Shown one piece after another: positions 1,574-18,907 of a stretch of DNA of 19,839 bases. This stretch comes from an uncultured Myxococcales bacterium (lineage in GTDB: Bacteria > Myxococcota > UBA4151). The stretch spans positions 1-19,839 of the forward strand of contig CAXGWI010000058.1 of the NCBI GenBank assembly GCA_964013405.1, given 5' to 3'. The notes under the pieces were generated by a model that searched no databases, was not told the DNA's origin, and saw only the letters and a program-made list of their open reading frames with translations. The translations under genes and the position numbers were made by a program. How positions within the stretch are numbered: position 1 is the stretch's first letter; the number at the start of each line of letters is the position of its first letter.

Positions 1574-1658
1574 TCAGGAGCAGTTCCCCGGAGATCGGCG
1601 CTAGCGCCCGCCCGCATTCGAGCGTATGAAGACGGGCACCAAAACGAGGAAGTCCAAT

Positions 1659-2300
1659 ATGTTCCACCGCCTGTTTCTCATCGCACTTCTCCCGGTCATG
1701 GCCTGCCCAGCCAACGACGCAGATTGCGATGGCCACTCGATCGGTGAGAACTATGCGGCCGCAGATGGTTGCAACACCTGCTCCTGCACGGCCGAGGGTG
1801 GGGTCTGCACCACCATGGACTGCGCCCCGGAGGATGCGGGTCCCCAGGTGCCGCCCGATGCTGGCGCCGCTGTGGATGGCGGTGTGGCTCCAGCCGCAGA
1901 TGCAGGTGCTGCCCCCGGGCTGCCAGAGAATGCCTGCCAGAATGCGGAAGACCTTGCGGCCCACGATCAAACCTTTGGTGATCAAAATAAAACGATCGCG
2001 ACGCTGGCTACCGACTGCGCCATCTCCTGCTTTATGGGGGGCCGGGGGGATGACCCAGCCTGCGTCACCGAGTGTCTTCAGGAAGGCACCGGCAACGCAG
2101 TCTCCGCTGATTGTGCCACCTGCTATGCCGCCTCGGCCGGCTGCGCAGGCACCAACAACTGTGCTGGCGTTTGCCTCGCCAACGCAGAGGCACCGCTCTG
2201 CATCCAGTGTCGCTGCGGCCAAGACGACCCGAGTCACACCAACTGCTATGAACTCTTCGCAGCCTGCTCCGGCTTCCCCCCCTCCAACGACTGTCAGTAG
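1659..2300 (+). CDS. Cys-rich lipoprotein: pacifastin/VWC-like module, DAG linker, Cys-rich C-terminal domain
   Basis: GAGGA RBS before ATG 1659. Lipoprotein signal MFHRLFLIALLPVMA-C. Contains CNTCSCTAEGGVCTTMDC, followed by Pro/Asp/Ala/Gly linker repeats. Confidence 0.8.
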   Translation: MFHRLFLIALLPVMACPANDADCDGHSIGENYAAADGCNTCSCTAEGGVCTTMDCAPEDAGPQVPPDAGAAVDGGVAPAADAGAAPGLPENACQNAEDLAAHDQTFGDQNKTIATLATDCAISCFMGGRGDDPACVTECLQEGTGNAVSADCATCYAASAGCAGTNNCAGVCLANAEAPLCIQCRCGQDDPSHTNCYELFAACSGFPPSNDCQ

Positions 2301-2311
2301 AAAGAACGCCC

Positions 2312-2773
2312 ATGTACTGCCCCCAATGCTACGACGAGTTCCGGGCGGGGTTTTTGACCTGCCCGGACTGTGAAGTGGCCCTGCTCCACGGCACGCCAGG
2401 CAAACGGGTCACCTACACCCCGGCTGAGGCTGAAAATCGACTCAGGGAAGCGCCGGTGGCCATCCTGGGGACTTTGCCGCAAGGGCCGGCATTGCAACTT
2501 CGGGATAACTTACTGAACTCCGGCGTCGACTGTGTGCTGACCCGCGAGGGGGGGGATTGCGGCCCCAGCGGTTGTGCTCCGGCCAGCTTCCACCTCCTCG
2601 TCCGTTCCGATCAAGTGGATGTCCTCAAGCAACAGCTCAATGCCCGGGCCGAAGCCTACGCCCAGGCCCATGGCATGCAATCCCAAGCGGATGCACCCAA
2701 CTGCCCTTGTTGTGGTTACAATCTGACAGCGAACGATGATGAATGCCCCGATTGTGGCATCGCCATCGTCTGA
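2312..2773 (+). CDS. Double zinc-ribbon protein with probable central DUF2007-like domain
   Basis: N-terminal CPQC..CPDC and C-terminal CPCC..CPDC knuckles. The central segment (ALQLRDNLLNSGVDC...FHLLVRSDQVD) resembles DUF2007-type proteins, by recognition only. Confidence 0.7.
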   Translation: MYCPQCYDEFRAGFLTCPDCEVALLHGTPGKRVTYTPAEAENRLREAPVAILGTLPQGPALQLRDNLLNSGVDCVLTREGGDCGPSGCAPASFHLLVRSDQVDVLKQQLNARAEAYAQAHGMQSQADAPNCPCCGYNLTANDDECPDCGIAIV

Positions 2774-2832: not shown

Positions 2833-2907
<75 letters not shown>

Positions 2908-2960: not shown

Positions 2961-3146
2961 CTATGGAATCGGAAGGCTAAGGACGAAGTCCACCGAATCC
3001 TGATACACATCCCAAGCGTAGACAAAGCGAGGCAGCATAAAGCCTCCCACCGCCCAGCATCCGATCAAAAATACCGAGGTCACGACGGCGTATTCAGCGA
3101 GACTCTGCCCCGACTCGTCGGCCCAAAACGCCCGCCAGCGGTTCAT
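2961..3146 (-). CDS. Small Flp/Tad-type pilin-like protein
   Basis: 61 aa. Prepilin motif ESG|QSLAEY (Glu+5, Tyr+6) followed by a hydrophobic helix. ATGA overlap with the upstream gene. Confidence 0.8.
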   Translation of the reverse strand: MNRWRAFWADESGQSLAEYAVVTSVFLIGCWAVGGFMLPRFVYAWDVYQDSVDFVLSLPIP

Positions 3147-3850
3147 GGTCCCTCCGCTGCCGATGGCATCCGCTGCTCTCGTACCATCACCTGTCCATCT
3201 TCAGTCTTCACATGATCCACCTGAAGGACTTGATGGCCCAGCTGCCACGTCTCGCTGTGCCGACCTTGCTGGCGCTGCTCATGGGCCCCCTCTTGAATCC
3301 GCGTCCAACCGGCCTCTCGAAGGGCCGCAGCCTTGGCTTCGACCGCCTGATTAAATCCCTCTTTAGCCTGCTGCGTGGAGCCGCCGGAAAGACCACCAAG
3401 GGCCGGGCCGACATGCTGTCGCGCGGTGCTCGACTCAGCGGCAAAGTCGGTGCGCCCCACCAGGACCGTCCGGGCTCCACTTCGATCCTCAATCAGGTAG
3501 GTCACTTGATCGCCGGCGCTGAAGTCGATGCTGGAAAGGAAGGCACCGCCATCTTCGAGCGGCACGACCCGCCCGCCCCGGCCCTGGGCGGCCCAATGCT
3601 CCATCACGAGATCGGCCAAGGCCTCGACGGAACGGGGATCCATTCGGTAGCCGCTCGCGACCCACCGCCCCGTCACATCCTGGCTCCAACCCAGTCGAAC
3701 CCAGTCGGAAAAGGGTGCCGTTGGCAGATCTAAGGTCTTGGGCGGTGCTTGAACGGGCGGCGCCGTAGGCTCCGGACCGCTGCCGGCCACTGCGAAGGCA
3801 CCGAGGCCCCCAAGACACAGTGAAACCGCAAAGACACCAAGCCACTTCAT
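3143..3850 (-). CDS. Hypothetical exported or membrane-anchored protein in the Tad pilin cassette
   Basis: Hydrophobic N-terminus MKWLGVFAVSLCLGGLGAFAVAG and a Pro-rich linker. ATGA overlaps at both ends (3847-3850, 3143-3146) indicate translational coupling. Confidence 0.7.
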   Translation of the reverse strand: MKWLGVFAVSLCLGGLGAFAVAGSGPEPTAPPVQAPPKTLDLPTAPFSDWVRLGWSQDVTGRWVASGYRMDPRSVEALADLVMEHWAAQGRGGRVVPLEDGGAFLSSIDFSAGDQVTYLIEDRSGARTVLVGRTDFAAESSTARQHVGPALGGLSGGSTQQAKEGFNQAVEAKAAALREAGWTRIQEGAHEQRQQGRHSETWQLGHQVLQVDHVKTEDGQVMVREQRMPSAAEGP

Positions 3851-4833
3851 CGGAAACACTCCGCCTCAGAGACCAATCGAGGACAACCCATGTAGTGTTC
3901 ACCCCGGGCCTGTAGGGTCCGCCCGTAGACGGAACCGCTGCCATCCTCGTCGTCGGTTCGCATCGGCGCCGTATCGAACCGGCTTTGACCACCGCTGACC
4001 GACTGTTCGATCCGCCCGGACTCAGGTCCTTCCCCCCGGCCGAAGGCAGCCATGCCGTAGTTGAGACTCGCCACCTGGACTTCCATCGGGTTGGTGTCCG
4101 CGCCCACCAACGCGGCCAGCGCAGCGAACAGTTGCCCAAAAGACTGGACGGTATCAGCCATGTCGCCGCCGAAAGCGACCCGCCCAACCTGTTTGGTAAA
4201 GCGGGCATCGCCCTCGCCAGGGCGAACATCTCGCCCGTCATGGAGACGCCAAGAACCAGCCAATAGCCGATAGTTTTCTTCGAAGCGCAGCACGCGCCGC
4301 ATGGGAGCGAAGGGGTTGTCGTTGAAGCGGCGCCCCACCAGGAAATTATGGGGAAAGAAATCGTCGATACCGAGGGCGCTTGTCTGGACCCGGGTCTGCA
4401 TCTCGCCCCGGGAGGGAAAGGCCTGATCGATCAGCGGGTTGTTCGCGGCCGGGCCATCTGCAACCTCGGCCTCAACAGCTTCAATACGCCGCTCGATGGT
4501 AAAATCCCGCGGCATCTCATTGCCGTTTCTGGTGGCATCCAGGTTCGCATACATCCGTCGAACCGCATCCACCGAGCCAGCGGCCGCTTGATCGATCACT
4601 CCATCGTGCTGCCCCTCGTCGTAGTCATGCATGGGGCGATTGATGGCGTCCCATGTGACCATCCGGGCCATCTCTTGCGTGTCCAACTTCAACTGCACCA
4701 GATCGACGAAATACCATGCGAAGAACAGCAAGACGATGATGACGGGGGCCATCACCGCAAACTCGGTCAAAGCCGCGCCTGATTCCTCGTCCCGGAACCG
4801 TTTCAATCCTTGCTGCAGCCGACGATGCATCAT
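3847..4833 (-). CDS. TadE-like minor pilin
   Basis: Prepilin motif ESG|AALTEFAVMAPVIIVLLFF followed by the TadE-type amphipathic helix (TQEMAR). AGGA lies upstream of the ATG. Confidence 0.85.
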   Translation of the reverse strand: MMHRRLQQGLKRFRDEESGAALTEFAVMAPVIIVLLFFAWYFVDLVQLKLDTQEMARMVTWDAINRPMHDYDEGQHDGVIDQAAAGSVDAVRRMYANLDATRNGNEMPRDFTIERRIEAVEAEVADGPAANNPLIDQAFPSRGEMQTRVQTSALGIDDFFPHNFLVGRRFNDNPFAPMRRVLRFEENYRLLAGSWRLHDGRDVRPGEGDARFTKQVGRVAFGGDMADTVQSFGQLFAALAALVGADTNPMEVQVASLNYGMAAFGRGEGPESGRIEQSVSGGQSRFDTAPMRTDDEDGSGSVYGRTLQARGEHYMGCPRLVSEAECFR

Positions 4834-4843
4834 CTCAAGGTTC

Positions 4844-6544
4844 CTAATGGGTCAGCAGGTTTTCGCCGAGTAGCGTGCCGAGGGTACCCCCGAACAAGCC
4901 CCCAAGCGGCGTATTGCCCAAACCGACCATCACGGGAGCGAGTTTGGCACGCCAGAACGGATTGAAGAAATTAGGCATTTCCTTCCAGTTGGAAACCCCC
5001 TCACCGGGACCGCTGCTGCCCGGCGGGCGGTGGTAGTAGGTCTGGGCCCGAGAGATCACGTTCATACCATTGAGCCCCACCAACCCACTCTCTGCACCGA
5101 TCCGACCATCGAACTCGATGCCCTGTCGCTGGGCGGTCGAGAGACGAAACTGAAGGGCTGGACCACTACTCCCGTCCCGATCGATCGCCGCGCTCTCCTT
5201 ATTGAGGAAGATCCATGTCGAGGGTTGCCCAAAATGGAGTTGGGGCGAGGGGTTGGCTGCGAAACGCATAAACGGGGCAATACCAGAGAAGCGACGATTG
5301 GGGTCCTGAACCACCCGGTAATTGTTATCGCGCCGGGCCCCGCGACGGTAAAGCATGCCAAAGCAGATGGTGTTGTAGCTACCGTTCGGGTCCCACTCCT
5401 TGTGGCTACCACCGTTGGGTCCTGCGATCACGAAGGTGCCATTATCCTCCATCGGAATGGGCGCTCCAACGGCCGCTGCAAGCAGGGGTACCGTCTGCCC
5501 ACTAAACTCCTCCTCGCTGGCCAAATACTGCCCGGGGCTTGCGATACTGCGCCCGAAACGATTCTGCGTAATTTCCGGTACGGTATGACGAGCTTGCTCA
5601 CGGATCTCGCCATCTCGAATCAACTTGCTCTGTCCCTTGATCGTAATGCCCGGCACCAAGGCCTGGGCCGCGGCAAAAAGCGAGCCTTCAGCCTTTCGCT
5701 CGGTGACGAACTCACCGTGGCGAGTGGCGTTGGCCAACTCCCCCATCAAACGCCGGCTCTCCTCAGGATTGAGAACATTGGGCGGCAAGGCCCTGGCCGT
5801 GGGCTCGATGGCGGCTTCAAAGGCCAGCGCATTGGCCCGCGACAACAGGGTCTCGACCACCCGAGCAGCATTCGTTTGGCCGATCTTCTCGTCCTGGGCC
5901 TCCACCTGCTCTTTCCAGCCCCGCAAAATATAGCTTCGAGCACCGGCCAACATGGCCTCATTAGCCGCAGGCATTGCTGTCCGGTTTCCTGTTTCAATGG
6001 CTAAGCGCATCGGTGTTACCGCCTGGTCGAACTGTTGCGCCGTTTGGAGCAGGTTCCGGGCGATCTCCCGCAGTTGGGGCACCACTTGCAGCGCAAGTGT
6101 TCGAGCCCGGGCGCACGCAGTCGGGGCACAATGGGTGATGCAACCGATCCCACAGGAACAACACCCACAGCCCCTGGTTCCAAGGAGCCAGCAGCAAGCG
6201 AAGCCATTGACCCAACTGGCCGCCTCCCACATCGCATCGGTGGCCGAGCCGATGAGATAACTCATGCCATAGAGGTAACTCACATAGGCCTGCAGCCCCA
6301 TCATCGCGTTGTAGTGCGTCAACTGGGCCCGATTGGAGAAGGCGAAGAAGTTGTAGGTCCGGGCCTCGGTCGCCGCGACCGAATAGGCCGCCTGGTCAGC
6401 GATGTTTTGGACGTGGATCCGCTGATGGACAGCCCGACCAACCTGCACCGTCGCGAGCACACCGATCGCGATGCCCAGCATCGCGACCGCCGCCAATGCG
6501 ATGGCTTGTCCATCCTCTTCCCGTTGCAGCTCCCGCAAACTCAT
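4844..6544 (-). CDS. Large TadG-like minor (tip) pilin
   Basis: EDG|QAIALAAVAML lacks Glu+5, as is typical for TadG-like proteins. Contains the Tad-domain motif VQNIADQAAYSVA and a C-terminal YYHRP...EMPNFFNPFWRAKL motif. Confidence 0.85.
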   Translation of the reverse strand: MSLRELQREEDGQAIALAAVAMLGIAIGVLATVQVGRAVHQRIHVQNIADQAAYSVAATEARTYNFFAFSNRAQLTHYNAMMGLQAYVSYLYGMSYLIGSATDAMWEAASWVNGFACCWLLGTRGCGCCSCGIGCITHCAPTACARARTLALQVVPQLREIARNLLQTAQQFDQAVTPMRLAIETGNRTAMPAANEAMLAGARSYILRGWKEQVEAQDEKIGQTNAARVVETLLSRANALAFEAAIEPTARALPPNVLNPEESRRLMGELANATRHGEFVTERKAEGSLFAAAQALVPGITIKGQSKLIRDGEIREQARHTVPEITQNRFGRSIASPGQYLASEEEFSGQTVPLLAAAVGAPIPMEDNGTFVIAGPNGGSHKEWDPNGSYNTICFGMLYRRGARRDNNYRVVQDPNRRFSGIAPFMRFAANPSPQLHFGQPSTWIFLNKESAAIDRDGSSGPALQFRLSTAQRQGIEFDGRIGAESGLVGLNGMNVISRAQTYYHRPPGSSGPGEGVSNWKEMPNFFNPFWRAKLAPVMVGLGNTPLGGLFGGTLGTLLGENLLTH

Positions 6545-7416
6545 GGACAGGCCCTCGCCAGATGGTGACGATATAGATTCGACTGCATCTGCATCGCGTA
6601 GGTCGTCTCGAGGGGGATGAAGTGATAGCCTCGATCGGCGAGGAAGCGTAGAATCGCAAACTCAATATTTTCCTGCATGGTCAGGTTGCGAGGAGGCTCG
6701 ACTTGCGGTTCCTCCTCATTATGAATCGGACTCAGTCGGTTTTCGTGCTTGCGGCCAAACACGGAAGCCAACCACGCATCGTGGATCAGGTTGGCGGCAA
6801 AGGGGATGCGCATCCAATAGTTGTAGCGCAGCCGAATCGACAGACGGTTGATGCGCCGGGCATCGGCAGCGGCAACCCCCTGACACCGACCATCAACACA
6901 ATCAAAATCCAGTTCACGTTCGGGCAGGTCACCGGGTGTTGGATTCGTGATCTCGATATTCACGAGCCCTGCTCTCGGCGTAAAATTCGGAATCGGGAGA
7001 CCGAAGCCGTTCAGCCAAGCATGGAGGCTTGCTACGCCGCATTGAGCCAGCCCGGTTAGAGTTAAAAGGACCTTAGCTCGAAGCCAGGTTTGCAGGAGGC
7101 CGGGCCGGCGACGATTGCGAAATGGATCCCGCTTGCCGGCGAGACTATCGGTCGCCCCTAGGCTGGGCAGCACAGCGATTAAGGCCGCATTCAGCATGGG
7201 CTTGCGATCCCCGTTATGGACAATGCCGGTCCTCGTGGCCTGGTAGGCGGCATATTCCGTCAACACTTTCGCCTGCTGAATCTGAAGGAGTTGGATGGTC
7301 CCCACCACGATGAAGGTCATCAGGGGCAGCACAATGGCCGCCTCAACCATCGCCTGCCCTTCTTCCCCCGACCGGAGGTGAGCCAGGCGACGAGCCATGG
7401 GTTTCAAGATCCGCAT
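6541..7416 (-). CDS. TadE-like minor pilin
   Basis: EEG|QAMVEAAIVLPLMTFIVVG..EYAAYQATRTG is a classic TadE N-terminus. Start placed at ATG 7416 (GGGAG upstream); 7398 is also possible. Confidence 0.85.
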   Translation of the reverse strand: MRILKPMARRLAHLRSGEEGQAMVEAAIVLPLMTFIVVGTIQLLQIQQAKVLTEYAAYQATRTGIVHNGDRKPMLNAALIAVLPSLGATDSLAGKRDPFRNRRRPGLLQTWLRAKVLLTLTGLAQCGVASLHAWLNGFGLPIPNFTPRAGLVNIEITNPTPGDLPERELDFDCVDGRCQGVAAADARRINRLSIRLRYNYWMRIPFAANLIHDAWLASVFGRKHENRLSPIHNEEEPQVEPPRNLTMQENIEFAILRFLADRGYHFIPLETTYAMQMQSNLYRHHLARACP

Positions 7417-7483
7417 CCCGCTCCCGGTGATACCGATACGTACACGATTATCGGCGCACCTGCCTATCGGTTGCCCAGAGGTA

Positions 7484-8392
7484 TCATGCCCGGGGGTGGG
7501 CATGGTCGTAGACTTGCTCCAAATGGGCGAGGCTTACGGCGGTGTATTTCTGGGTGGTGGACAAGCTGGCGTGCCCCAACAACTCTTGGATGGCCCGTAA
7601 GTCTGCCCCCCCTTCGAGCAGGTGGGTGGCAAAACTGTGCCGTAACCTGTGGGGGTGAACCCGACCGGCGAGCCCGGCTCGCTTGGCTAGCTGCTGCAGT
7701 CGGCGGCGAACGCCGTCGGGCCGAAGAGCCGTGCCGCGCCGACCGAGGAACAGGGGCTCCGACAAGCCCGGCTCCCCCTCAAAAAAATGCAAGCTCCGCA
7801 GGCCTAACCAAGCCAAGAGGGCCTCTTTGGTCGCCACGGGAAAAGGCACGATCCGTTCCTTGTTCCCCTTGCCCAGCACCCGGACCGTTCGCTGCCGCAA
7901 GTCGAGGTCGCCCGGGGCCAGGCCACAGAGCTCGCTGATGCGGAGGCCAGCGCCGTACAGCAACTCGACGATCGCCCGATCCCGACAATCCAGATCAAGG
8001 CCTGTCTCCAGATCCTCTCGACCTTCCAATGGTGTGTCGGCCAAGGACGACGCATCCTGAGGCCCTAGCGGTCTAGGAAGGCGTTTCGGCTGCTTCGGAT
8101 GCTTCAACCCCGCGCCCAGGTCATCCTCTGTCCAACCACGGCTAAAGAGAAAGCGCAGGAACTGTTTCAGGGCGCTGACCGATCGGGACAATGATGCAGC
8201 CTCGACCTCGCGGTGCCGCTGGGAGAGAAAACGTCGAATCCGACGGGGCCGCAGGGCGCTGGTGTCTGGATCGCCAAGCCCATCCACGAGGCGAGCGACC
8301 TCTGCGCAATAGGCCCGGCAGGTGTGCTCCGACAAAGCCCGCTCCGCAGCGAGGTGCTGGTTCCAGTCCACTAAGGCTTCGCTGAGCCGCAT
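7484..8392 (-). CDS. xerC: Tyrosine recombinase XerC
   Basis: N-terminal SAM-like domain (LSEHTCRAY). Catalytic residues intact: R (GLRISEL), K (GKGNKER), HxxR (HRLRHSFATHLL), H (LLGH), Y (TQKYT). XerC/D-type tail YDHAHPRA. Start at ATG 8392 after GGGGGAGG. XerC versus XerD judged by motif resemblance only. Confidence 0.85.
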   Translation of the reverse strand: MRLSEALVDWNQHLAAERALSEHTCRAYCAEVARLVDGLGDPDTSALRPRRIRRFLSQRHREVEAASLSRSVSALKQFLRFLFSRGWTEDDLGAGLKHPKQPKRLPRPLGPQDASSLADTPLEGREDLETGLDLDCRDRAIVELLYGAGLRISELCGLAPGDLDLRQRTVRVLGKGNKERIVPFPVATKEALLAWLGLRSLHFFEGEPGLSEPLFLGRRGTALRPDGVRRRLQQLAKRAGLAGRVHPHRLRHSFATHLLEGGADLRAIQELLGHASLSTTQKYTAVSLAHLEQVYDHAHPRA

Positions 8393-8520
8393 GCCTCCCC
8401 CCGGATGGTCAGACGGATCATGCCATGAAATCCCTGCCAGGCCTAGCTCGAAGGGGACGCAATCTGCGGTTTTTTTTGCGTACGCCTCGTGCGCGAGGTT
8501 CAACAGGCGAGGGGGATCTC

Positions 8521-10593
8521 GTGCTACTTGTGGCTCAAACCGGATTCGTCGCCGCCCTTTTGCTGGCGGTGATCGCGGTCAGCCACTCAGCCCGTGGGCA
8601 AGGCCGGCGCCAAGATGACCGCCTCGTGATCTTCGCCGCCAACCTCGGTTTCGTGCACCTATTTTCGGCCATGGCTGCCCTTTCGTCCTACGGCCTTTGG
8701 CCCCGTTTGATGTGGATCGCTGCCGGACTCACGCCGGTCACTGCCTCTGCCTTTCTCCGCTCCTTGGTCGGCAGCGCAGATCGTGGGGCAGTGCAAACAG
8801 GCCGGTTTCCCGCCGCTCTGTTTGCCTTGGTCACGGTCGTCCTCTCCCTGACCCCTTGGCTCGTGGAGGGGGGGCTCATCCCCACTTTGCTCGGCGGCCT
8901 TCTGCTCGGCCTCCACACCTATCTGATCGACATGATTCGGAAAGCCGCACAGGTGGCCGACTCGCCAATCAGCCAGGCCCGTCTCCGTCTCCTCTGGGCG
9001 GGGGCAGGCCTGTGCATGGGCTTGACCGCACTCGATCTAGCCACCGGTCGCCAGTTGATTGGTTTGGCGACGATTTCCCAAGTTCTCTACACCGGCCTAC
9101 TGTCCGCCAGTTTACTGCGGGAGCGGCTACTCGACCTCCAAGATCTCATCGCCCGCGGCCTAATCTTTGGTCTGCTGGTTCTCATCCTCACCGCCCTCTA
9201 TGGTGTGCTCGTCTTCCCCTTCTACCAAGAGGGCGAGACCTTTCTCTTCGCCACCCTCGTCTGCTCAGCGATCCTCCTGCTGCTGATCAACCCGATGACC
9301 CGCAGCATCGAAAACCTCATCATGCGCCTCATGCTCGCCGACACACAGGTGCTTACCGAGGCCTGTTATACGGCGAGAGACCGCATTCGCCGCAGCGTCC
9401 AAGCGCGGGAGATGATGGACTCGGTGGTGGTCGCGTTGATGGAAAACGGCACCGTCACCCGAGTCGCAATCTATCTCACAGGGCCCATGGGACTGTCCTT
9501 CAATCTTAAAGCGAGCGGCGGACCGAGCCCCCAGGCGACTCTGGAGGTGAGAGACTTTCCAGAATTCTACTCCCAACTGAGGGGTGATCAGGCTTCACTC
9601 TCCCGTTCAGGTATTCAACGCCAACTCAGCCGTCGGGCCGAATGGATCGGTCCGATCAACGCAGAGACCGACCCGGAGATCGCCCATTTGAAGGCCCTGG
9701 AGGAGGGGCTGACGAAGGCAGGAGCGGACCTCCTGCTCCCTGTGAGCAGTCAAGGCCAAGTCCTCGGGCTCCTCTCGGTGGGGGATGATCGGCGGCCTGA
9801 GGGATTCACCCGGACGGAGGCTGCCGCCCTTTCGGCCCTGGCAGGCCGCTTGGGTATCGGCATCTCCAACACCCAACATATGGAACAACTGCGCTTCCGA
9901 GACCGCCTGGCCGCACTGGGTGAAATGAGTGCAGGCCTAGCCCACGAGATTCGTAACCCCCTCGGCTCGATTCAAGGGGCTGTTCAGATGCTCGAGGATG
10001 AACTTCCCCTCGACGACGAGCAGCAAGAACTCTTCGAGATCATCACCAAAGAGATTCGCCACCTCAGTTCAGTGGTACAAGGCTTCTTGGACTACTCCCG
10101 CCCCCTAAAGGTCCAACCGGAACCCGTCCTTCCTGCCGAGTTTCTGGCGGCCTGCGCCCAAGTCCTGGCCGGGACCCCGGTGATCGAGGTGAGTCAGAGC
10201 GTCGAAACGGCCTGGATTGATCGAGACCGAATCCTCCAAGTGCTGCGAAACTTGGTCAACAATGCCCGCGAAGCCGATCCAGAAAGAGAGCCAACCATCA
10301 GTTGCCACGACAGCAGCCTCGGGACCGTCATCGAGGTGATCGACCAGGGGCCCGGGATCCCCGATGAGCAGCGGGCCAAACTCTTCACCCCCTTCTTTAC
10401 CACCAAGGACCGAGGCACAGGCTTGGGGCTTGCGATCTGCCAGCAGATCACCAAAGCTCACGGTGGCCGCTTGGATCTTTTGGCCAATCCTGGAGGTGGC
10501 ACCATCGCCCGAATCACTTTACCCAAACCCAGGGATGGTCAAGGGGCCGGTGCTTCTCTAGAGTCCCCCAGCAAGGAGAGCCCTTCCACGTGA
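8521..10593 (+). CDS. Membrane sensor histidine kinase (multi-TM, GAF, HisKA, HATPase)
   Basis: About 8-9 hydrophobic segments and a GAF-like region (LLLPVSSQGQVLGLLSVG). H-box AHEIRNPL, N-box NLVNNA, G1 DQGPGI, F-box FTPFFTTK, G2 GTGLGL. Start placed at GTG 8521 after GAGGGGG. Confidence 0.93.
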   Translation: MLLVAQTGFVAALLLAVIAVSHSARGQGRRQDDRLVIFAANLGFVHLFSAMAALSSYGLWPRLMWIAAGLTPVTASAFLRSLVGSADRGAVQTGRFPAALFALVTVVLSLTPWLVEGGLIPTLLGGLLLGLHTYLIDMIRKAAQVADSPISQARLRLLWAGAGLCMGLTALDLATGRQLIGLATISQVLYTGLLSASLLRERLLDLQDLIARGLIFGLLVLILTALYGVLVFPFYQEGETFLFATLVCSAILLLLINPMTRSIENLIMRLMLADTQVLTEACYTARDRIRRSVQAREMMDSVVVALMENGTVTRVAIYLTGPMGLSFNLKASGGPSPQATLEVRDFPEFYSQLRGDQASLSRSGIQRQLSRRAEWIGPINAETDPEIAHLKALEEGLTKAGADLLLPVSSQGQVLGLLSVGDDRRPEGFTRTEAAALSALAGRLGIGISNTQHMEQLRFRDRLAALGEMSAGLAHEIRNPLGSIQGAVQMLEDELPLDDEQQELFEIITKEIRHLSSVVQGFLDYSRPLKVQPEPVLPAEFLAACAQVLAGTPVIEVSQSVETAWIDRDRILQVLRNLVNNAREADPEREPTISCHDSSLGTVIEVIDQGPGIPDEQRAKLFTPFFTTKDRGTGLGLAICQQITKAHGGRLDLLANPGGGTIARITLPKPRDGQGAGASLESPSKESPST

Positions 10594-11960
10594 TGAGCGA
10601 GCGGATTCTGGTCGTCGACGACGAACCGAGTATGAGAAAGGTGTTGGGCCGACTCCTCGAGCGGGCCGGCTACAGTGTGGAGTTGGCGGAAAATGGCCAA
10701 GAGGCCCTTCGACGGCTTCAGGATGGCGGCATCGATCTCGTCATCACCGACATCCGCATGCCGGTGATGGATGGGATCGAGTTGCTCGCCGCCATGGCCC
10801 CCAACCTCCCCGATATTCCGGTCATCGTCATTACGGCCCATGGGACGGTCGACACCGCGGTGTCGGCCATGAAGATGGGTGCATTCGATTTCGTCTCGAA
10901 ACCTTTCGAGTCGGACCAGCTCCTACGGAACTGTCAGAAGGCCCTGGCTCAGAGTCGAGCAGAGCGCCGCAGTGTGCAGACGGGCCGGGAAGGGTCGGGC
11001 GTGCGCTTACTGGGCACCTCGACCGAATCCCAGGCCCTGCGGGACTGGATCGACAAGGTTGCGAACCTCCCCAGTGCAACCCTTCTGAACGGGGAACCAG
11101 GCACCGGCCACGGCCTGGTCGCCCGGGCGATTCACGAGGCGAGCCCCCGCAAAGAGGCGCCCTTCGTGAAGATTACCTGTGGCGCCATTCCCCGAGACTG
11201 GTTCGAAAGTGAACTCTTCGGTCATGAGGCTGGCGCCGTCCCCGGCAGTGCCTCTGAACGGCCTGGCCGTTTGGAATTAGCCGATGGGGGCACGCTGTTC
11301 CTCAACGAGATCGATGCCATGCCGATGGACGTTCAAGGCCAACTGCTGCGGGTCATTAAAGAGGGGAGGGTGGGCCGCCTCGGCGCTCTGAGCGATCGGG
11401 CCGTTGATGTGCGACTCATCGCGGGAACCCACGCAAATCTGGAGGAAGCCGTCAGCGAGGGGCGGTTCCGAGATGACCTCTTTTATGCCCTGAACGTGGC
11501 CCATTTCGAGTTGACCGCGCTCCGCAGTCGCCTGGAAGACCTTCCCGATCTGGCCGAGTACTTCGTTGCCAAGTTCAACACGCGCCTGGGCCGTCAAGTC
11601 ACGGGGATTTCGCCCCAAGCGATGAGTATGCTCCTTGCCCACCGTTGGCCTGGCAATGTCCGCGAGTTGGAGAACGTCATCGAGCGAGCGATGTTGTTTG
11701 CCGATGGCGAAGTCTTGGACGTGGGCCACCTGCCAGGTCAACTCCAAGGTGGCGGTGAGCCTGACCTGCCCATCACTGATTTCGATTCCAACATGAAGTC
11801 GATCGTGCGGCGGGCGACGGCGAATATCGAGCGCCAACTCATTCGGGGCGCCCTCGATGAGAGTCAAAATAACGTGACCCACGCGGCGAAGGCCCTTGGT
11901 ATCAGCCGCAAGAGCTTGCAGACGAAAATGAAGGAACTCGGGCTGAGAGAGGACGTCTAA
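10593..11960 (+). CDS. NtrC/AtoC-family response regulator (REC, AAA+, Fis HTH) with a degenerate AAA+ domain
   Basis: Receiver intact (VVDDE, ITDIRMP, TAHG, KPF). ESELFGHE and WPGNVRELEN present, with C-terminal HTH NVTHAAKALGISRKSL. Start overlaps the kinase stop (TGATG). Confidence 0.93.
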   Translation: MSERILVVDDEPSMRKVLGRLLERAGYSVELAENGQEALRRLQDGGIDLVITDIRMPVMDGIELLAAMAPNLPDIPVIVITAHGTVDTAVSAMKMGAFDFVSKPFESDQLLRNCQKALAQSRAERRSVQTGREGSGVRLLGTSTESQALRDWIDKVANLPSATLLNGEPGTGHGLVARAIHEASPRKEAPFVKITCGAIPRDWFESELFGHEAGAVPGSASERPGRLELADGGTLFLNEIDAMPMDVQGQLLRVIKEGRVGRLGALSDRAVDVRLIAGTHANLEEAVSEGRFRDDLFYALNVAHFELTALRSRLEDLPDLAEYFVAKFNTRLGRQVTGISPQAMSMLLAHRWPGNVRELENVIERAMLFADGEVLDVGHLPGQLQGGGEPDLPITDFDSNMKSIVRRATANIERQLIRGALDESQNNVTHAAKALGISRKSLQTKMKELGLREDV

Positions 11961-11963
11961 ACC

Positions 11964-12125
11964 ATGGGTTGCGCACGTGTCATACTGGCCATTATTTTCC
12001 CCCCCCTTGCGGTCCTCGACAAGGGCTGCGGCCCCATCATCATGGTCAGCTTTCTCACCTTGCTTGGCTACATTCCGGGCTTGATCGCTGCGATCATCAT
12101 GGGAAGCGCAAAAGACGAGGATTAG
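11964..12125 (+). CDS. yqaE: YqaE/Pmp3 (UPF0057) small membrane proteolipid
   Basis: Below the ORF-track cutoff. Manual translation MGCARVILAIIFPPLAVLDKGCGPIIMVSFLTLLGYIPGLIAAIIMGSAKDED (53 aa) carries the family signatures PPLAV and LTLLGYIPG. Confidence 0.88.
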   Translation: MGCARVILAIIFPPLAVLDKGCGPIIMVSFLTLLGYIPGLIAAIIMGSAKDED

Positions 12126-12196
12126 CTGACGGTCCCGTTCGGACTTGCGTCTCGGCTGCCCCATGATTCATATAGCGCAGCATGGAGGTTCGCCTG

Positions 12197-13705
12197 ATGC
12201 ACCGTTGCATATCGCTCAGCCTACTGGCGCTGTTGGCGTGGCCCGCTCAGGCGACCCCGCGGTTTGTGACGCCCGTTGAGCGTAGCAGTAACCTCGACCA
12301 GCGCGACGGAAACGACCCTTTCGATTCCCGCATCGAGTTCGGCTGGTACTCGCAGAGCGAGGAGTCGGTCATCGGTCAGGAAACCATCGTCGATGGGATC
12401 CGTACCACGAAAGAGGTTGCAACCTATCGCATGAACCGACGGGTGATCGAGCCGAAGCTCCGCATCGGACTGTTCAGTCGCCTCGCCCTCTTCGTCGAGT
12501 TTCCGATGGTGGTCGGCTGGAATCAAACCTGGGAAGCGACCGATAACTTGCACAACGAGGACATGGTCTACCAGGGAGTCGAGCCAGATCCGGACAGCCG
12601 CTATACCTTTGGCGTCCCGGCCTTGCAGCGAACGCCGTCAGCGACCCTGCGCGAGGGCTACGACGCCCCCATCCATGAAACCTTTCGGCGCTCCTATGTC
12701 GGTGACCTACGAGCCGGTTTGACCTTCGACCTGCTGAGCGAGATCGCAGATCCGAGTAAACCCACCTGGCTGTGGGAACTCTGGAGCCGATTCCCCAGTG
12801 GCATGCCGATGGAGCCGACCTATCGGGGCGAAGATACAGACCTCGATGGCCGGAACCCCCGGGCCGGTAACACCACGAACACGGCCACCGAGAGCAACCC
12901 GGGCGGCGTCAGTCAGGGCTACTACCGCTTCGGCGTCCGAACGACCCTCGGGCGCTGGGTCGGCAAGGCCAGACCTTATTTCTCCGTGGGCTACAGTTTC
13001 GGCAACGCCATGCAGAACGATCGCTACGACGCCCAGAACATGTACGACCACGCGAGCTTTCTAGATCCCAGCCCAGGGGACGACGACAACCCATTTGACC
13101 TGCCCAGTGACCACCTTGCGGACAGTTGCCCAGTGACCACGGGCCAAGTCCACGCCCGCTGTCGACGCAAGTCCATGTCGCTCCAAGGCCAGACGCTCAC
13201 GATCGATCATGGAGCCGGACTGCGACCTTCCCATATCGGTGAGACGGAGTTCGGTGTCTCCACCAACCTGTGGAAATCCGGGGGCTACCAGGGCTCTTAC
13301 GTAAAGCTCGACCTGATGGTTCGCGGCGAATACCACAGTGAAGGGCGAGAGCTAAACCGCATGGCCGATCTCCTGGGGCGGCCCACCTTCCAAGAACAGT
13401 TCGCTCGTACAGGTTTCGGCGCAGGCCTGCGCTTCGCCCATGCGGGGATCATCGAGGCTCGACTCCTCGGCAGCATGGGGACAGAGACCAGCCACTTTGT
13501 CACCTTCGAAGACTACGGCGAAGCGGACACCCTCGATCCAGGGGATGTCGGTAAGTCCGAAGCAGATGACACTTATCGCTCCATCAACGAGGCCTACGAA
13601 TACAGCCCGTATCACCGGAGCGCTTTCGACGGCGTGGGCAATCGACTGCGACTGATCAGTAACAGCTTCGCCAGCGTCAACGTGGATCTCCGGATCCGCT
13701 TCTAG
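12197..13705 (+). CDS. Predicted outer-membrane beta-barrel protein of unknown family
   Basis: GGAGG lies 8 nt before ATG 12197. Sec signal ends AQA. Alternating beta-strands (PKLRIGLF, YFSVGYSF, FGAGLRFA) and a BAM-type C-terminus VNVDLRIRF. Confidence 0.75.
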   Translation: MHRCISLSLLALLAWPAQATPRFVTPVERSSNLDQRDGNDPFDSRIEFGWYSQSEESVIGQETIVDGIRTTKEVATYRMNRRVIEPKLRIGLFSRLALFVEFPMVVGWNQTWEATDNLHNEDMVYQGVEPDPDSRYTFGVPALQRTPSATLREGYDAPIHETFRRSYVGDLRAGLTFDLLSEIADPSKPTWLWELWSRFPSGMPMEPTYRGEDTDLDGRNPRAGNTTNTATESNPGGVSQGYYRFGVRTTLGRWVGKARPYFSVGYSFGNAMQNDRYDAQNMYDHASFLDPSPGDDDNPFDLPSDHLADSCPVTTGQVHARCRRKSMSLQGQTLTIDHGAGLRPSHIGETEFGVSTNLWKSGGYQGSYVKLDLMVRGEYHSEGRELNRMADLLGRPTFQEQFARTGFGAGLRFAHAGIIEARLLGSMGTETSHFVTFEDYGEADTLDPGDVGKSEADDTYRSINEAYEYSPYHRSAFDGVGNRLRLISNSFASVNVDLRIRF

Positions 13706-13724: not shown

Positions 13725-14522
13725 ATGATCAGAATCGCCCACCTTTCCGATCTGCATATCTCGAAACAGCCCCCTCACTGGACTGCGTTTGCAGACCGGC
13801 GTCTCAGCGGGGCCCTCAACCTCACCGTGGGGAAGCGGCGTCATGGCTACCGCATGTCGGCGATCCGCGGCGAAGCCGCCGTTCGCCAGATCATCGCCCA
13901 GGCCCCAGACGCCATCGTCTTCGGGGGTGACGCGAGCTCGCTGGCTGAGCGGGAGGAACTGGCCGGTGCCGCCGATGTCCTCGCGCCCCTCTTGGATTTG
14001 GGCGTTCCCTGCTTTGCCCTGGCCGGCAACCATGATCGCTACACCCACCGGGCCCAGGCCCAGCGTCGCTTCGAAGCGGCTTTTTGCGATTGGCAGCAAG
14101 TCGAGGATGGTTTTCGCCGAGTTCAGTTAGGCCCGGTGGCCATAGGCCTCGTGGATACGGCCCGGGCCAATCGGTGGCTCTGGGACAGTCGTGGACGGGT
14201 GATCCGTCTGCCCGAGAACCTGCCTCCGCTCCTCTTTAGTCACTACGCGTTGGTGCTGCCAAATGGCCAGCCGGACCGATACTGGCATGGCCTACGAAAC
14301 GGCCCCGAAGTCCTCGAGCGTCTTCGCGAAGGCGATCCCGTGACGTGGTGTAGCGGCCATATCCATCACGCCTTCGAAGTCCAATGTGGTCAGGTCCGCC
14401 AGTTCAGCGCTGGCAGCGTCGGCAGCCCAGCGGCCACCTGGCAGTTGGTCGAAGTGGATGGGCCAACGATCCGCAGGCAGGTTTTCTCGGCCGGCGAATC
14501 CGCGGCGAATCCTAACCGATAA
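13725..14522 (+). CDS. Calcineurin-like metallophosphoesterase (CpdA/Icc-like)
   Basis: All five motifs present: SDLH, GGD, GNHD, SHY, GHIH. No signal peptide. Confidence 0.9.
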   Translation: MIRIAHLSDLHISKQPPHWTAFADRRLSGALNLTVGKRRHGYRMSAIRGEAAVRQIIAQAPDAIVFGGDASSLAEREELAGAADVLAPLLDLGVPCFALAGNHDRYTHRAQAQRRFEAAFCDWQQVEDGFRRVQLGPVAIGLVDTARANRWLWDSRGRVIRLPENLPPLLFSHYALVLPNGQPDRYWHGLRNGPEVLERLREGDPVTWCSGHIHHAFEVQCGQVRQFSAGSVGSPAATWQLVEVDGPTIRRQVFSAGESAANPNR

Positions 14523-14589
14523 CAGCTACGAGGGCCGACCGATGGTGAAGGCGGCGGCGCTGAAGGCACAATCCCCCCCTGGAGGCAGG

Positions 14590-16617
14590 ATGCTGAGAAC
14601 TTGGGCCGCGCTTTCCCTGCTGTTGCTGACGGGCTGTCCCGACGACAAAGTCGCGCCGGAGGCACAGCCCGATGCAGGCCCCATTCGTTGGGGTCTGAGC
14701 CTGGCGCACGATAGTCAGATCACCATGGATCCAGGGGGCACCTTTCCCCTCCGGGCGATGTACTTCAACACCGAACTCGGTGGCCTCGAAAACCAACCTG
14801 TTTCCTTTCTGATCGTCGGCGATGCCCAGGGGGGTAGCCTGGCGGCCAATTCGGGTCAGACCGATGAAGATGGCTTCGCAACCTTGGATTTCCAGGCGCC
14901 GCTCGAAGCGACTCAAAGGCCGATCCAAGTTGAGATCTCCGCCGCTAAAGTCGAGGCACCGCTCTACGTGCAGATCACGGTCACCGAGCCGGACCTAAGG
15001 CTTCTGCCCGTCGGCGCGACGGAACGGGATGTACGCCCCAACATGGTCTTGCCCGTGCAAATCCTCGTCGAACGGGTCGGTGGCGGTGCCATCGCGGGCG
15101 TCTCCGTCGACGCCCAACTCCGTTTGGCTGACGGTGTCGTGCCGCCTGGGATGGGTCTTCAGGAAGTTGGTCTGGCGACCGTTTCCACCGACACCAGGCT
15201 CTCGGGCATCGCCCGGGTCGAACTCCACACCGGCCCGGAAGAGGCTGATATATGGGTGGACATGGGCGTCGCTGGCGTCGGTACGGTCTCCTATCTATTT
15301 CACGTCCGCGCTGGCGGTATGGGTGAGGGGGGCTGCCGGCTCGACCGGGACTGCGGCGAGGGGTTCATCTGCGTCCGAGAGGGTGAGGGTGAAGAGGCTC
15401 AGAACGTCTGCGTGCCCGACGAGGAATCGGGCTGCGACCCGATCAACCCGGCGCCCGGTCAATGCCCCCCTGGCTTCACTTGTGATCCCAATGGCGAATG
15501 TGTCCCGGGCGCCATCACCGGCTGCCTACAAGCGCCCGAGGTCTGCCCGGAGCACTTCGAGTGCATTGCGGACGTCTGTGTCCGACTCTGCGACCCCGAC
15601 GACCTTTGTCCCGACGGTTTCGAGTGTATAGAAGGCGTCTGCCAAGAGCCGGACCCGCCACCAGACATGGTGCGCGTAGAGGGCTTGTGGCTCACCCTCT
15701 ATCAGTTCGACCTGAGCGAAGTCCTCGGCTTCCTCGGGGGGCTGGGCGGACCACTCGACTTTGTCGATCAGGCCTTCCGTGGCAATCTGAATGTGCCCAT
15801 CCCTCTGCTCGGCGACCTCATCGAGGACGCCGTGGGTGATTTGATCGCCCGCTATGTCCCCCCTTGGGTCCCCGACTTAGTCCACGGTCTCAACACCCTG
15901 GTCCACATCTTCCAAGAGCTCCAAGTGGCTGGCGAGATGGAACTTCGCCACCGGCAGAACCCGCTCCACGTCCGCGGCACCGAAATGTGGCACCATGCGA
16001 TGATTCACCTCATCGACCGCTGCCCCCTCGGTCGGCAGGACCCCAACTGGCCCCGCTGTGCTCAGGTCGACATCATGTTCGATCAACAGTTGGGGGACTT
16101 TGGCGAGATTCACACCGACCCGCGCCCATTCTCTGGTCGTCTCTATCTAGACCAGCAACAAGAATGGCGCCTACTGCTCAATCGCGAAGTCGAGGCGGAT
16201 CTCGTCGGACTGGTTCGCTACATTGTGAACCTAGTGGTTTCGATCAGCACCAACGGCCGGGCCAGGGACCTTCCCCAGGCCCTGGAGCAAGCCATCGACT
16301 GCCGCGGGGTGGCCAGGGCCGCGAACGATGCGGCCCGCCAGATGGGCCTCAATGGCGGCATTCCAGGTGTGGAGCAAATGTGTCAGGCCGCGGTGGCGGA
16401 AGCCGGCCGCCAAGTCGACGAGATTCTCGGCCGAATCGGCATCGGCTGGGAGGTCATGGACTTCGACCAGCGTGCCCGTGTGTACGATGATAACAACGAC
16501 CTTCTTGGCGATGAGTTAGGCCGTTGGCCCGACGCACCCGGTGATCTCGATGGGCGCTTCCGTATCATCTGGCGGGCCCCCATCGACGGGGTCTGGTTTG
16601 GGGATCGCCCTCGGTAA
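14590..16617 (+). CDS. Lipoprotein with Ig-like (Big_1/invasin-like) domains, Cys-rich repeats and an unknown C-terminal domain
   Basis: GGAGG RBS and lipobox LLTG-C. NQPVSFLI...GQTDEDGFATLDFQAP is Big_1-like. Several CxxxxxCPxGFxCxxxxC modules follow, then a globular C-terminus of about 320 aa. Confidence 0.8.
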   Translation: MLRTWAALSLLLLTGCPDDKVAPEAQPDAGPIRWGLSLAHDSQITMDPGGTFPLRAMYFNTELGGLENQPVSFLIVGDAQGGSLAANSGQTDEDGFATLDFQAPLEATQRPIQVEISAAKVEAPLYVQITVTEPDLRLLPVGATERDVRPNMVLPVQILVERVGGGAIAGVSVDAQLRLADGVVPPGMGLQEVGLATVSTDTRLSGIARVELHTGPEEADIWVDMGVAGVGTVSYLFHVRAGGMGEGGCRLDRDCGEGFICVREGEGEEAQNVCVPDEESGCDPINPAPGQCPPGFTCDPNGECVPGAITGCLQAPEVCPEHFECIADVCVRLCDPDDLCPDGFECIEGVCQEPDPPPDMVRVEGLWLTLYQFDLSEVLGFLGGLGGPLDFVDQAFRGNLNVPIPLLGDLIEDAVGDLIARYVPPWVPDLVHGLNTLVHIFQELQVAGEMELRHRQNPLHVRGTEMWHHAMIHLIDRCPLGRQDPNWPRCAQVDIMFDQQLGDFGEIHTDPRPFSGRLYLDQQQEWRLLLNREVEADLVGLVRYIVNLVVSISTNGRARDLPQALEQAIDCRGVARAANDAARQMGLNGGIPGVEQMCQAAVAEAGRQVDEILGRIGIGWEVMDFDQRARVYDDNNDLLGDELGRWPDAPGDLDGRFRIIWRAPIDGVWFGDRPR

Positions 16618-16620
16618 AAA

Positions 16621-16652
16621 GACCGAGAAGGGCGTGCGCTCTCCCATCGGTC
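16621..16652. terminator. Possible intergenic hairpin
   Basis: GACCGA...TCGGTC outer stem with an imperfect inner GGGCG/CGCTC stem just after the stop at 16617. The U-tract is only on the minus strand. Confidence 0.3.
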
Positions 16653-16752
16653 ATCTATACCATCTCACGTTGATCGATCTTGACTTGGCTCCGGTTTCCC
16701 CTCACAGACCGGCGCCTAAATCGAAGGGCCTATGGCCCACCGGGAGTAATTG

Positions 16753-18849: not shown

Positions 18850-18852
18850 TGA

Positions 18853-18882: not shown

Positions 18883-18907
18883 CTTTAAGAAAACAAGGAA
18901 CCCAATC

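What the first reader, a model, noticed from the sequence alone, without database searches (positions are those of the whole stretch)
10593..11960. NtrC-like regulator whose AAA+ domain looks like a dead pseudo-ATPase, paired with an intact kinase
Seen in sequence: four substitutions at functional positions. Walker A reads GEPGTGHG (11091-11114; canonical GESGTGKE, catalytic Lys to His). The sigma54-contact loop reads GAVPGS (11232-11249; canonical GAFTGA). Walker B reads FLNEI (Asn at 11304; canonical FLDEI). The arginine-finger region reads DLFYALNV (Ala at 11487; canonical DLYYRLNV). Scaffold motifs (ESELFGHE, WPGNVRELEN), the phosphoacceptor Asp, the HTH and the reading frame are intact. 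Established: these residues are needed for ATP hydrolysis and sigma54 remodelling, and sigma54-independent relatives exist (HupR, TyrR, NtrX), although loss of all four together is extreme. Inference: a phosphorylation-switched repressor, a sigma70 co-regulator, a dominant-negative subunit for other enhancer-binding proteins (compare FleT), or a repurposed ligand-binding pocket.
Basis: partly seen in the sequence, partly recalled or inferred. Interest (0 to 1): 0.78.

Follow-up and report, generated by a model that had tools for sequence, protein, structure and literature searches.

The report
Conserved dead-motor version of core regulator
A gene switch that most myxobacteria carry as an ATP-driven activator has, in one uncultured family, lost the amino acids needed to burn ATP and to contact sigma-54 yet stays under strong selection beside an intact sensor kinase, so it likely now works as a simple phosphorylation-controlled DNA-binding regulator, a type already known from a few other bacteria.

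Summary
The four substitutions are real and at the stated coordinates. They are neither decay nor an assembly error. All 6 genomes of this uncultured Myxococcota family share the Walker A Lys-to-His change, the arginine-finger loss and the broken GAFTGA loop. The Walker B Asp-to-Asn change is limited to this genus. Synonymous sites are saturated while pN in the AAA+ domain is 0.066. The gene is the family's only copy of a single-copy regulator found across the phylum, likely the orthologue of the M. xanthus orphan NtrC3555; it is canonical almost everywhere else. It therefore replaced the active gene, with no active twin to inhibit. Kinase motifs, phosphoacceptor Asp and HTH are intact, and rpoN and canonical activators remain. 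In a second lineage, two reduced genomes with no detectable rpoN keep the same orthologue, with HTH intact and GAFTGA lost. Best reading: a sigma54-independent, phosphorylation-switched DNA-binding regulator on a dead AAA+ scaffold, like VpsR or NtrX. Its targets are unknown. The xerC link is incidental. Earlier unchecked scan notes describe dead activators in another phylum, as paralogues. A new member of a known kind.

The parts
10593..11960 (+). NtrC-type response regulator (receiver - AAA+ - Fis-type HTH), 455 aa, with a degenerate AAA+ domain; its ATG overlaps the kinase stop (TGATG)
   Evidence: fold predicted with mean pLDDT 87, AAA+ part at 1.2-1.8 A rmsd to most isolated AAA+ domains of solved activators
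10749..10751 (+). Phosphoacceptor Asp53; D9, D10, T81 and K103 also kept
   Evidence: D53 in 10 of the 10 clade sequences that cover it
11091..11114 (+). Walker A GEPGTGHG: Lys173 to His (His in 10 of 11 clade sequences, Ala in 1), Glu174 to Gly (this genus)
11199..11201 (+). Trp203, fixed in 11 of 11 clade sequences where 110 of 110 others have Leu
11232..11249 (+). Loop 1, GAVPGS in place of GAFTGA; GAFTGA absent in 11 of 11 clade sequences and variable among them
11298..11312 (+). Walker B FLNEI: Asp238 to Asn in this genus only (3 of 11); Glu239 kept in 11 of 11
11487..11489 (+). Arginine finger Arg299 to Ala (Ala in 10, Ser in 1 of 11)
   Evidence: role of NtrC1 R299 from PMC7175178 (passage)
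11661..11663 (+). Sensor II Arg357, kept
   Evidence: Arg in 10 of the 10 sequences that cover it
11823..11939 (+). HTH_8 DNA-binding domain; the most conserved part, diagnostic of the orthologous group
8521..10593 (+). Membrane sensor histidine kinase (several hydrophobic segments, GAF, HisKA, HATPase_c); probable GTG start 8521 (longest ORF from 8425); phospho-His codon about 9943-9945
8485..8498 (.). 14-bp palindrome CCTCG-N4-CGAGG just upstream of the kinase start; candidate auto-operator, a weak lead
   Evidence: identical in G001 but not in the other genus, and not enriched genome-wide
12182..13705 (+). Conserved downstream gene (507 aa, no family match), syntenic with the regulator across the phylum, with its own sigma70-like promoter
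7484..8503 (-). xerC-like recombinase (probable start near 8392), divergent neighbour; not part of the system

Best explanation
This protein has lost the residues for ATP hydrolysis and sigma-54 contact while keeping its receiver, DNA-binding domain and partner kinase, so it is likely a sigma54-independent regulator that the adjacent kinase would phosphorylate and that would bind DNA sites at ordinary (sigma70-type) promoters. SHOWN in sequence: (1) Lys173, the GAFTGA Phe/Thr pair, Lys250 and Arg299 are lost across the clade, Arg253 in 10 of 11, and Glu174, Asn195 and Asp238 additionally in this genus; (2) strong purifying selection on all three domains, strongest on the HTH; (3) it is the genome's only member of a single-copy, phylum-wide orthologous group, so it replaced the active gene; (4) the kinase keeps all catalytic boxes and overlaps the regulator's start codon. 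FROM ESTABLISHED KNOWLEDGE: without these residues a bEBP cannot remodel sigma54 holoenzyme. INFERRED: the kinase phosphorylates Asp53; this changes the oligomer state or DNA affinity; the AAA+ fold survives as a scaffold that couples receiver to HTH; the output is promoter occupancy, more likely repression than activation (about 60:40, a judgement from simplicity and the NtrX precedent), using a DNA site like the ancestor's. Target genes were not identified.
For: Motif loss across the clade versus 0 of 110 near homologues. G000-G001: pS 0.75-0.85 (saturated) and pN 0.047 / 0.066 / 0.028 for receiver / AAA+ / HTH. Of positions at least 90% conserved in canonical homologues, those lost in all clade members number 14 of 89 in the AAA+ core, 2 of 42 in the receiver and 0 of 20 in the HTH. 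The clade is monophyletic (SH-aLRT 100) inside the orthologous group (99), and the genome's 8 other bEBPs fall outside it (quick tree). rpoN is in 6 of 6 family genomes and 7 of the 8 other bEBPs keep Lys, DE and the R-finger, so the loss is specific to this gene. Independent case: G078 and G136 (94% and 88% complete) have no rpoN match, and their only bEBP is this orthologue, with GAFTGA lost, HTH kept and pN/pS 0.17. No sigma54 promoter motif in the window or the four family loci scanned, whereas the same scan found the Pxr promoter in 5 of 7 Pxr loci. Precedents: VpsR lacks GAFTGA and has Asn-Asp in Walker B; NtrX represses (PMC6158489, passages); VpsR needs no ATP (10.1101/2023.06.06.543975, passages).
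Against: No target promoter or binding site was established. The palindrome at 8485-8498 is conserved only within the genus and is not enriched. Activation versus repression is undetermined. Retention after rpoN loss is not unique to this group: unrelated bEBPs also persist in rpoN-negative genomes of that family (G013, G043, G154, G146), G134 keeps GAFTGA without a detected rpoN, and the orthologue was not found in 16 of the 21 genomes; absence of rpoN from draft genomes is not proof. Several GAFTGA-less regulators still need ATP binding (Caulobacter and R. capsulatus NtrC), and Glu239, Arg293 and Arg357 are kept, so residual nucleotide binding is not excluded. Canonical orthologues also lack a nearby sigma54 promoter, so that absence says little. 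No biochemistry was possible.
Confidence: 0.62

Rival explanations
1. Repurposed ligand pocket: the dead active site binds a nucleotide or another small molecule and is a second input to the DNA-binding regulator. This is compatible with the best explanation.
For: His173 is kept in 10 of 11 sequences across two genera despite saturated synonymous sites; Trp203 and Tyr323 are fixed in 11 of 11; Glu239 and sensor II Arg357 are kept. A His at this position also occurs in unrelated degenerate bEBPs, among them NtrX-like proteins. VpsR uses a second messenger.
Against: One clade member has Ala173. Pocket residues keep eroding in this genus (Glu174, Asn195, Asp238). About 44 positions are clade-fixed, most of them probably plain shared ancestry. 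The convergent His cases were found by a pattern that required His; in an unbiased set, 0 of 6 Walker A Lys losses were to His. The Arg-Asn pair seen in FlrA reads Arg-Ala or Gln-Ala here, which argues against a FleQ-type c-di-GMP site (residues from PMC8335546, passage; the mapping to FleQ numbering is partly recalled).
Confidence: 0.15
2. Decoy or partner subunit: it enters rings of other, active enhancer-binding proteins, or occupies their enhancers, and so tunes sigma54 transcription.
For: rpoN and 8 other bEBPs are present. The AAA+ fold is intact. Mixed rings are known for HrpR/HrpS, FleQ/FleT and RedR1/RedR2 (PMC10084136, passage).
Against: No close paralogue: the nearest one in the genome is 41% identical and outside the orthologous group. 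The trans-acting residues Arg299, Lys250 and Arg253 are lost. The orthologue persists in genomes where it is the only bEBP and rpoN is not detected.
Confidence: 0.09
3. Phosphate sink or signalling partner: only the receiver matters, draining or relaying the kinase's phosphate, and the rest is baggage.
For: Receiver and kinase motifs are fully intact.
Against: The HTH is the most constrained domain (pN 0.028; 18 of 20 conserved positions kept in all clade members), and AAA+ scaffold positions are also held.
Confidence: 0.06
4. Still a sigma54 activator, through compensating changes or unusual chemistry.
For: rpoN present; Glu205, Glu239, Arg293 and Arg357 kept.
Against: Loop 1 has lost the Phe/Thr pair and drifts freely (seven variants in 11 sequences); the P-loop Lys and the R-finger are gone.
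Confidence: 0.04
5. Incipient pseudogene or assembly error.
For: A long stem branch (0.84 changes per column) shows a period of fast change.
Against: Open frames in 6 of 6 family genomes (G005 cut by a contig end; G004 with an internal gap); pN/pS 0.07 with saturated pS; the same residues under different codons; an identical public contig.
Confidence: 0.02

Closest known systems
VpsR of Vibrio cholerae (atypical bEBP; PMC6158489, passages read)
   Same: Receiver-AAA+-HTH layout, no GAFTGA, Walker B Asp to Asn, acts without sigma54; reported not to need ATP (10.1101/2023.06.06.543975, passage).
   Different: VpsR is described as driven by c-di-GMP and as not needing phosphorylation. This protein has a co-encoded intact kinase and has also lost the Walker A Lys and the R-finger. 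It is not an orthologue (PDB match E 2e-45 against 4e-93 for NtrC1).
NtrX of Brucella abortus (PDB 5M7N/O/P)
   Same: Kinase-paired NtrC-type regulator with an altered GAFTGA, a repressor at its own promoter; among the top fold matches.
   Different: NtrX structures hold ATP or ADP. This protein scores below the NtrX family cut-off (371 against 600 bits) and its kinase has a GAF domain rather than NtrY's HAMP/PAS.
GAFTGA-less NtrC of Caulobacter and Rhodobacter capsulatus (10.1101/2023.06.06.543975, passages read)
   Same: A conserved orthologue that moved from sigma54 to sigma70 control in one lineage while staying phosphorylation-dependent.
   Different: Those have a loop-1 deletion and still need Walker A (Caulobacter also Walker B); here the loop length is kept and the catalytic residues are gone.
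NtrC3555 (MXAN_3555) of Myxococcus xanthus (PMC3892784, passages read)
   Same: Likely orthologue: the best match in a Myxococcaceae-type genome lies directly downstream of encA (EncA = MXAN_3556, PMC11126975, passage), has no adjacent kinase, and falls in the same tree group with a near-identical recognition helix.
   Different: That gene keeps all canonical motifs and is an orphan; no phenotype is listed for it in the table read. The assignment rests on gene order in a relative, not on a direct comparison with strain DK1622.
FleT of Cereibacter sphaeroides; HrpR/HrpS
   Same: Non-standard bEBPs acting in mixed oligomers.
   Different: FleT lacks the regulatory and HTH domains and is needed for activation; this protein keeps both domains and has no close partner in its genome.

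Membership tests
NtrC-type bEBP family (by descent and architecture) | Receiver + Sigma54_activat AAA+ + lid + HTH_8 | tested here: met
   all above Pfam cut-offs
Canonical sigma54 activator | GAFTGA in loop 1 | tested here: not met
   GAVPGS; GAFTGA in 0 of 11 clade sequences
Canonical sigma54 activator | Walker A lysine | tested here: not met
   His173
Canonical sigma54 activator | Walker B Asp-Glu | tested here: not met
   Asn-Glu in this genus; Asp-Glu in the other 8 of 11
Canonical sigma54 activator | Arginine finger (NtrC1 R299) | tested here: not met
   Ala299
Canonical sigma54 activator | ATP hydrolysis and open-complex formation | not testable with these tools
   needs biochemistry
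Atypical, sigma54-independent bEBPs (VpsR, NtrX, HupR, TyrR, PhhR, HsfA) | bEBP architecture with altered GAFTGA, with or without non-consensus Walker motifs | tested here: met
   class as described in PMC6158489
Atypical, sigma54-independent bEBPs (VpsR, NtrX, HupR, TyrR, PhhR, HsfA) | Regulates sigma70-type promoters independently of rpoN | not testable with these tools
   indirect only: the orthologue persists where rpoN is not detected; no target found
NtrX | Score above the NF051870 cut-off and an NtrY-type kinase | tested here: not met
   371 against 600 bits; kinase is GAF-HisKA-HATPase_c
PxrR/SpdR/Nla19 of M. xanthus | Encoded directly upstream of the Pxr sRNA | tested here: not met
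   In G014 and G117, Pxr lies beside a different bEBP, far from this orthologue
PrsK/PrsR (PEP-CTERM system) | Scores above the TIGR02915 / TIGR02916 cut-offs | tested here: not met
   327 against 503 bits and 90 against 300 bits
NtrC3555 orthologous group of Myxococcota | One tree group, single copy per genome, shared HTH, synteny with the kinase and the downstream gene | tested here: met
   the name is assigned by gene order
FleT-like partner subunits | Lacks regulatory and HTH domains and has a cognate active partner | tested here: not met
   both domains present; no close paralogue
FleQ-type c-di-GMP effectors | R144, R185, N186, E330, R334 | tested here: inconclusive
   The Asn of the Arg-Asn pair is Ala in 11 of 11; no direct FleQ alignment was printed, so the numbering is partly recalled
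Two-component pair | Phosphotransfer from this kinase to Asp53 | not testable with these tools
   motifs intact and genes coupled; transfer not shown

The most novel reading that the evidence does not exclude
The phylum-wide NtrC3555 regulator has a sigma54-independent core job that has survived two separate losses of sigma54 contact. In this marine family the dead ATP site was rebuilt around fixed His173, Trp203 and Tyr323 into a new ligand sensor, giving a two-input switch (kinase phosphate plus small molecule) on an AAA+ pseudoenzyme scaffold.
Probability: 0.12. Interest if true: 0.72.

Novelty: new member of a known kind. Interest (0 to 1): 0.4.

Why it matters
It is a clean natural series for how an ATP-driven sigma54 activator turns into a plain DNA-binding regulator: canonical orthologues across the phylum, a GAFTGA-only loss where rpoN is missing, a family with three catalytic losses, and this genus with four or more. 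It also points to an almost unstudied single-copy core regulator of myxobacteria (likely NtrC3555) that can be studied in M. xanthus, where replacing it with the dead orthologue would separate its sigma54-dependent from its sigma54-independent roles. The class itself is known (VpsR, NtrX, Caulobacter NtrC) and no target or ligand was found here, so the surprise for a specialist is moderate.

Tried and rejected
PxrR/SpdR orthology (my first guess, from memory): rejected; Pxr lies beside another bEBP. PrsK/PrsR and NtrX membership: below cut-offs. The degenerate Walker A DNA pattern matched 41 of 401 genomes; of 30 loci checked outside the family, 1 was a degenerate bEBP and the rest were not bEBP genes. 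The metagenome pattern scan gave 23 loci, only 2 of this clade, both near-copies of known genomes. Operator search: the palindrome is not enriched (36 genomic copies at 4-base spacing against 44 and 41 at spacings 1 and 7; mismatch counts like the reversed control). The sigma54 promoter scan found no consistent promoter near the orthologue in any lineage, so no regulon could be assigned. Homo-oligomer prediction of the AAA+ domain (3 copies with ATP): no verdict, score 0.35 against a mark of 0.42. The representative-protein search returned only generic bEBPs and was used as background. Rfam found only a tRNA. The careful tree did not finish, so a quick tree was used. The mutant paper cited for NtrC3555 (PMC421606) could not be read. 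No supplements of any paper were read; phenotype or expression data for MXAN_3555 may lie there.
Full report
Observation. The ORF at 10593-11960 encodes a 455-aa receiver-AAA+-HTH protein. All four substitutions are at the stated coordinates. Alignments to solved activators put Lys, GAFTGA, Asp and Arg opposite them. Further changes are Glu174Gly, Asn195Thr and Lys250Gln; Glu205, Glu239, Arg293 and sensor II Arg357 are kept. His280 at sensor I is not counted as a loss, because active FlrA and ZraR also have His there. A bEBP review (PMC7175178, passages) describes GAFTGA as the sigma54 contact, the switch Asn and Walker B Glu as the nucleotide sensor, and NtrC1 R299 as the trans-acting finger. 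The Caulobacter NtrC preprint (passages) states that the Walker A Lys is needed for ATP binding and the Walker B Asp for hydrolysis. AlphaFold gives a confident model (mean pLDDT 87) whose AAA+ part matches most isolated AAA+ domains at 1.2-1.8 A. That model was built on an alignment of mostly canonical proteins, so it shows only that the sequence is compatible with the fold.

Context. Named homologues are mostly Myxococcota. The genome is 3.9 Mb, 61% GC and 94% complete. Two marine metagenome runs hold pieces identical to the window, and one may be its source. I could not name the family. The regulator's ATG overlaps the stop codon of a membrane GAF-HisKA-HATPase_c kinase, whose H, N, G1, F and G2 boxes are intact in every family sequence that covers them.

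Conservation. All 5 other genomes of the family carry the gene at 61-90% identity, with His for the P-loop Lys, Ala for the R-finger and a broken loop 1. Among 121 aligned proteins (the query and the 120 best hits), 11 form this clade, several being the same proteins as those genomes. K173 is His in 10 and Ala in 1; R299 is Ala in 10 and Ser in 1; GAFTGA is in 0 of 11; D238N is in 3 of 11 (this genus). Of the other 110, none loses any of these motifs. As background, among 171 ungapped AAA+ domains from 150 representative proteins none had all four losses and 5 had three. Between G000 and G001 synonymous sites are saturated (pS 0.77) while pN is 0.047, 0.066 and 0.028 for receiver, AAA+ and HTH. 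The derived residues persist under different codons. Losses concentrate in the AAA+ core: 14 of 89 conserved positions, against 2 of 42 in the receiver and 0 of 20 in the HTH. Pseudogene and assembly error are excluded.

Orthology. A quick IQ-TREE run (55 proteins; the careful search did not finish) makes the clade monophyletic (SH-aLRT 100) inside a 44-protein group (99) that excludes all 8 other bEBPs of the genome; FastTree agrees. The group's HTH matches in 102 of 151 phylum genomes, once per genome in 101. Orthologues are canonical in 14 of 14 other-family genomes, and in 31 of the 33 genomes with readable motifs (37 genomes examined, 4 truncated and dropped; two genomes overlap). Of ten 18-kb loci from other families, 5 have the same kinase directly upstream, 6 have the downstream 507-aa gene, and 0 have xerC. 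In a Myxococcaceae-type genome the orthologue follows encA and has no kinase. EncA is MXAN_3556 (PMC11126975, passage) and NtrC3555 is listed as an orphan NtrC (PMC3892784, passages), so the likely M. xanthus orthologue is NtrC3555. This is an inference from gene order. My first guess, PxrR, failed (PMC10217877, passages).

Sigma54 context. rpoN is in 6 of 6 family genomes. Seven of the 8 other bEBPs keep Lys, Asp-Glu and the R-finger, and a near-consensus sigma54 promoter precedes a pilin-like gene. The loss is therefore specific to this gene.

A second loss. In a family of reduced genomes, the orthologue was found in 5 of 21 genomes and rpoN in 5 of 21. G022 and G140 have rpoN and GAFTGA. 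G078 and G136 have no rpoN match; their only bEBP is this orthologue, with GAFTGA lost, ATPase motifs and HTH kept, and pN/pS 0.17. Against reading too much into this: G134 keeps GAFTGA without a detected rpoN, unrelated bEBPs also persist in four rpoN-negative genomes, and all are drafts or single assemblies.

Targets. None was established. No sigma54 motif lies in the window or the four family loci scanned, while the scan recovered the Pxr promoter in 5 of 7 control loci; canonical orthologues lack a consistent nearby motif too. A 14-bp palindrome at 8485-8498, inside a possible -35/-10 spacer before the kinase, is identical in G001 but is not kept in the other genus and is not enriched. It is a lead only.

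Mechanism. Best supported (0.62): the kinase phosphorylates Asp53, and the regulator binds DNA and acts at sigma70-type promoters without ATP hydrolysis, with the AAA+ fold as scaffold; repression is somewhat more likely than activation. Only the sequence anatomy and selection are shown; the rest is inferred. Rivals: repurposed ligand pocket (0.15), decoy subunit (0.09), phosphate sink (0.06), residual sigma54 activation (0.04), pseudogene or error (0.02).

Comparison with what is known. It fails every sequence test for a canonical sigma54 activator and meets the sequence definition of an atypical bEBP. VpsR already combines GAFTGA loss with Walker B Asp-to-Asn, and NtrX is a kinase-paired repressor (PMC6158489, passages). 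What differs here is the added loss of the Walker A Lys and R-finger in a kinase-paired protein that has replaced a phylum-wide core gene. Searches of the held library for MXAN_3555 and NtrC3555 returned one paper that mentions it (PMC3892784). Searches for degenerate bEBPs returned nothing on this clade; for most listed papers I saw only listings, and subscription journals and supplements were not covered. Two unchecked scan notes describe dead activators in another phylum, there as paralogues beside an active copy; a word search and a relatives search found nothing on this locus.

Verdict. Real, conserved and under selection; a new member of a known kind; interest 0.40.

Noticed in passing
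window 11964-12125 (+): Unlisted 53-aa Pmp3 proteolipid gene (Pfam PF01679, E 3e-10) starting 3 bases after the regulator's stop; not present at this place in the other family genomes whose intergenic region was printed, so probably a recent insertion.
   Followed up: partly
window 12182-13705 (+); L118, L119, L121, L124, L125, L127: Conserved 430-510 aa protein with a signal-peptide-like start and no Pfam or NCBIfam match, syntenic with the regulator across Myxococcota; Atlas look-alikes are unnamed Myxococcota clusters, with one weak lead to PF13557 (11% of a cluster). A sigma70-like promoter precedes it in most loci printed.
   Followed up: partly
G078:C6:15065-16528 and G136:C26:2829-4268 (L292, L293): Second, independent loss of GAFTGA in the same orthologue, in 1.4-1.5 Mb genomes with no detected rpoN; both also have Pro in Walker A (GEPGTGKE), as in the window's clade, and no adjacent kinase.
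   Followed up: yes
L194, L196, L202, L207, L198, L210, L163: Other, more degenerate bEBP families with His in place of the Walker A Lys; the best NCBIfam match is NtrX (below cut-off) for L194, L202 and L198. Found by a pattern that required His, so frequency cannot be judged.
   Followed up: partly
window 3143-7503 (-): TadE / TadG / TadE-like pseudopilin cluster directly downstream of xerC, conserved with it in G001 and G003.
   Followed up: no
window 2312-2773 (+): Zinc-ribbon protein matching the '(seleno)protein DG' family below its cut-off (NF049953, E 1e-20); read here with no in-frame TGA.
   Followed up: no
window 2833-2907 (-): tRNA-Val(GAC).
   Followed up: yes
window 14386-19837 (+) and 1626-2300 (+): Several large cysteine-rich, probably secreted proteins with repeated disulfide modules, typical of Myxococcota; little or no Pfam assignment.
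   Followed up: no
G000:C46:7777-9273 (-): Another bEBP of this genome has Walker B Glu to Gly (FLDGV) and GAFTDA, two genes from a canonical bEBP: a second possible pseudo-ATPase.
   Followed up: no
L109-L112 (G113, G054, G094, G079): Weak Pxr-like RNA matches (43-51 bits, below the Rfam cut-off of 80) in smaller genomes of the family that holds true Pxr; three have no bEBP within 1.5 kb.
   Followed up: no
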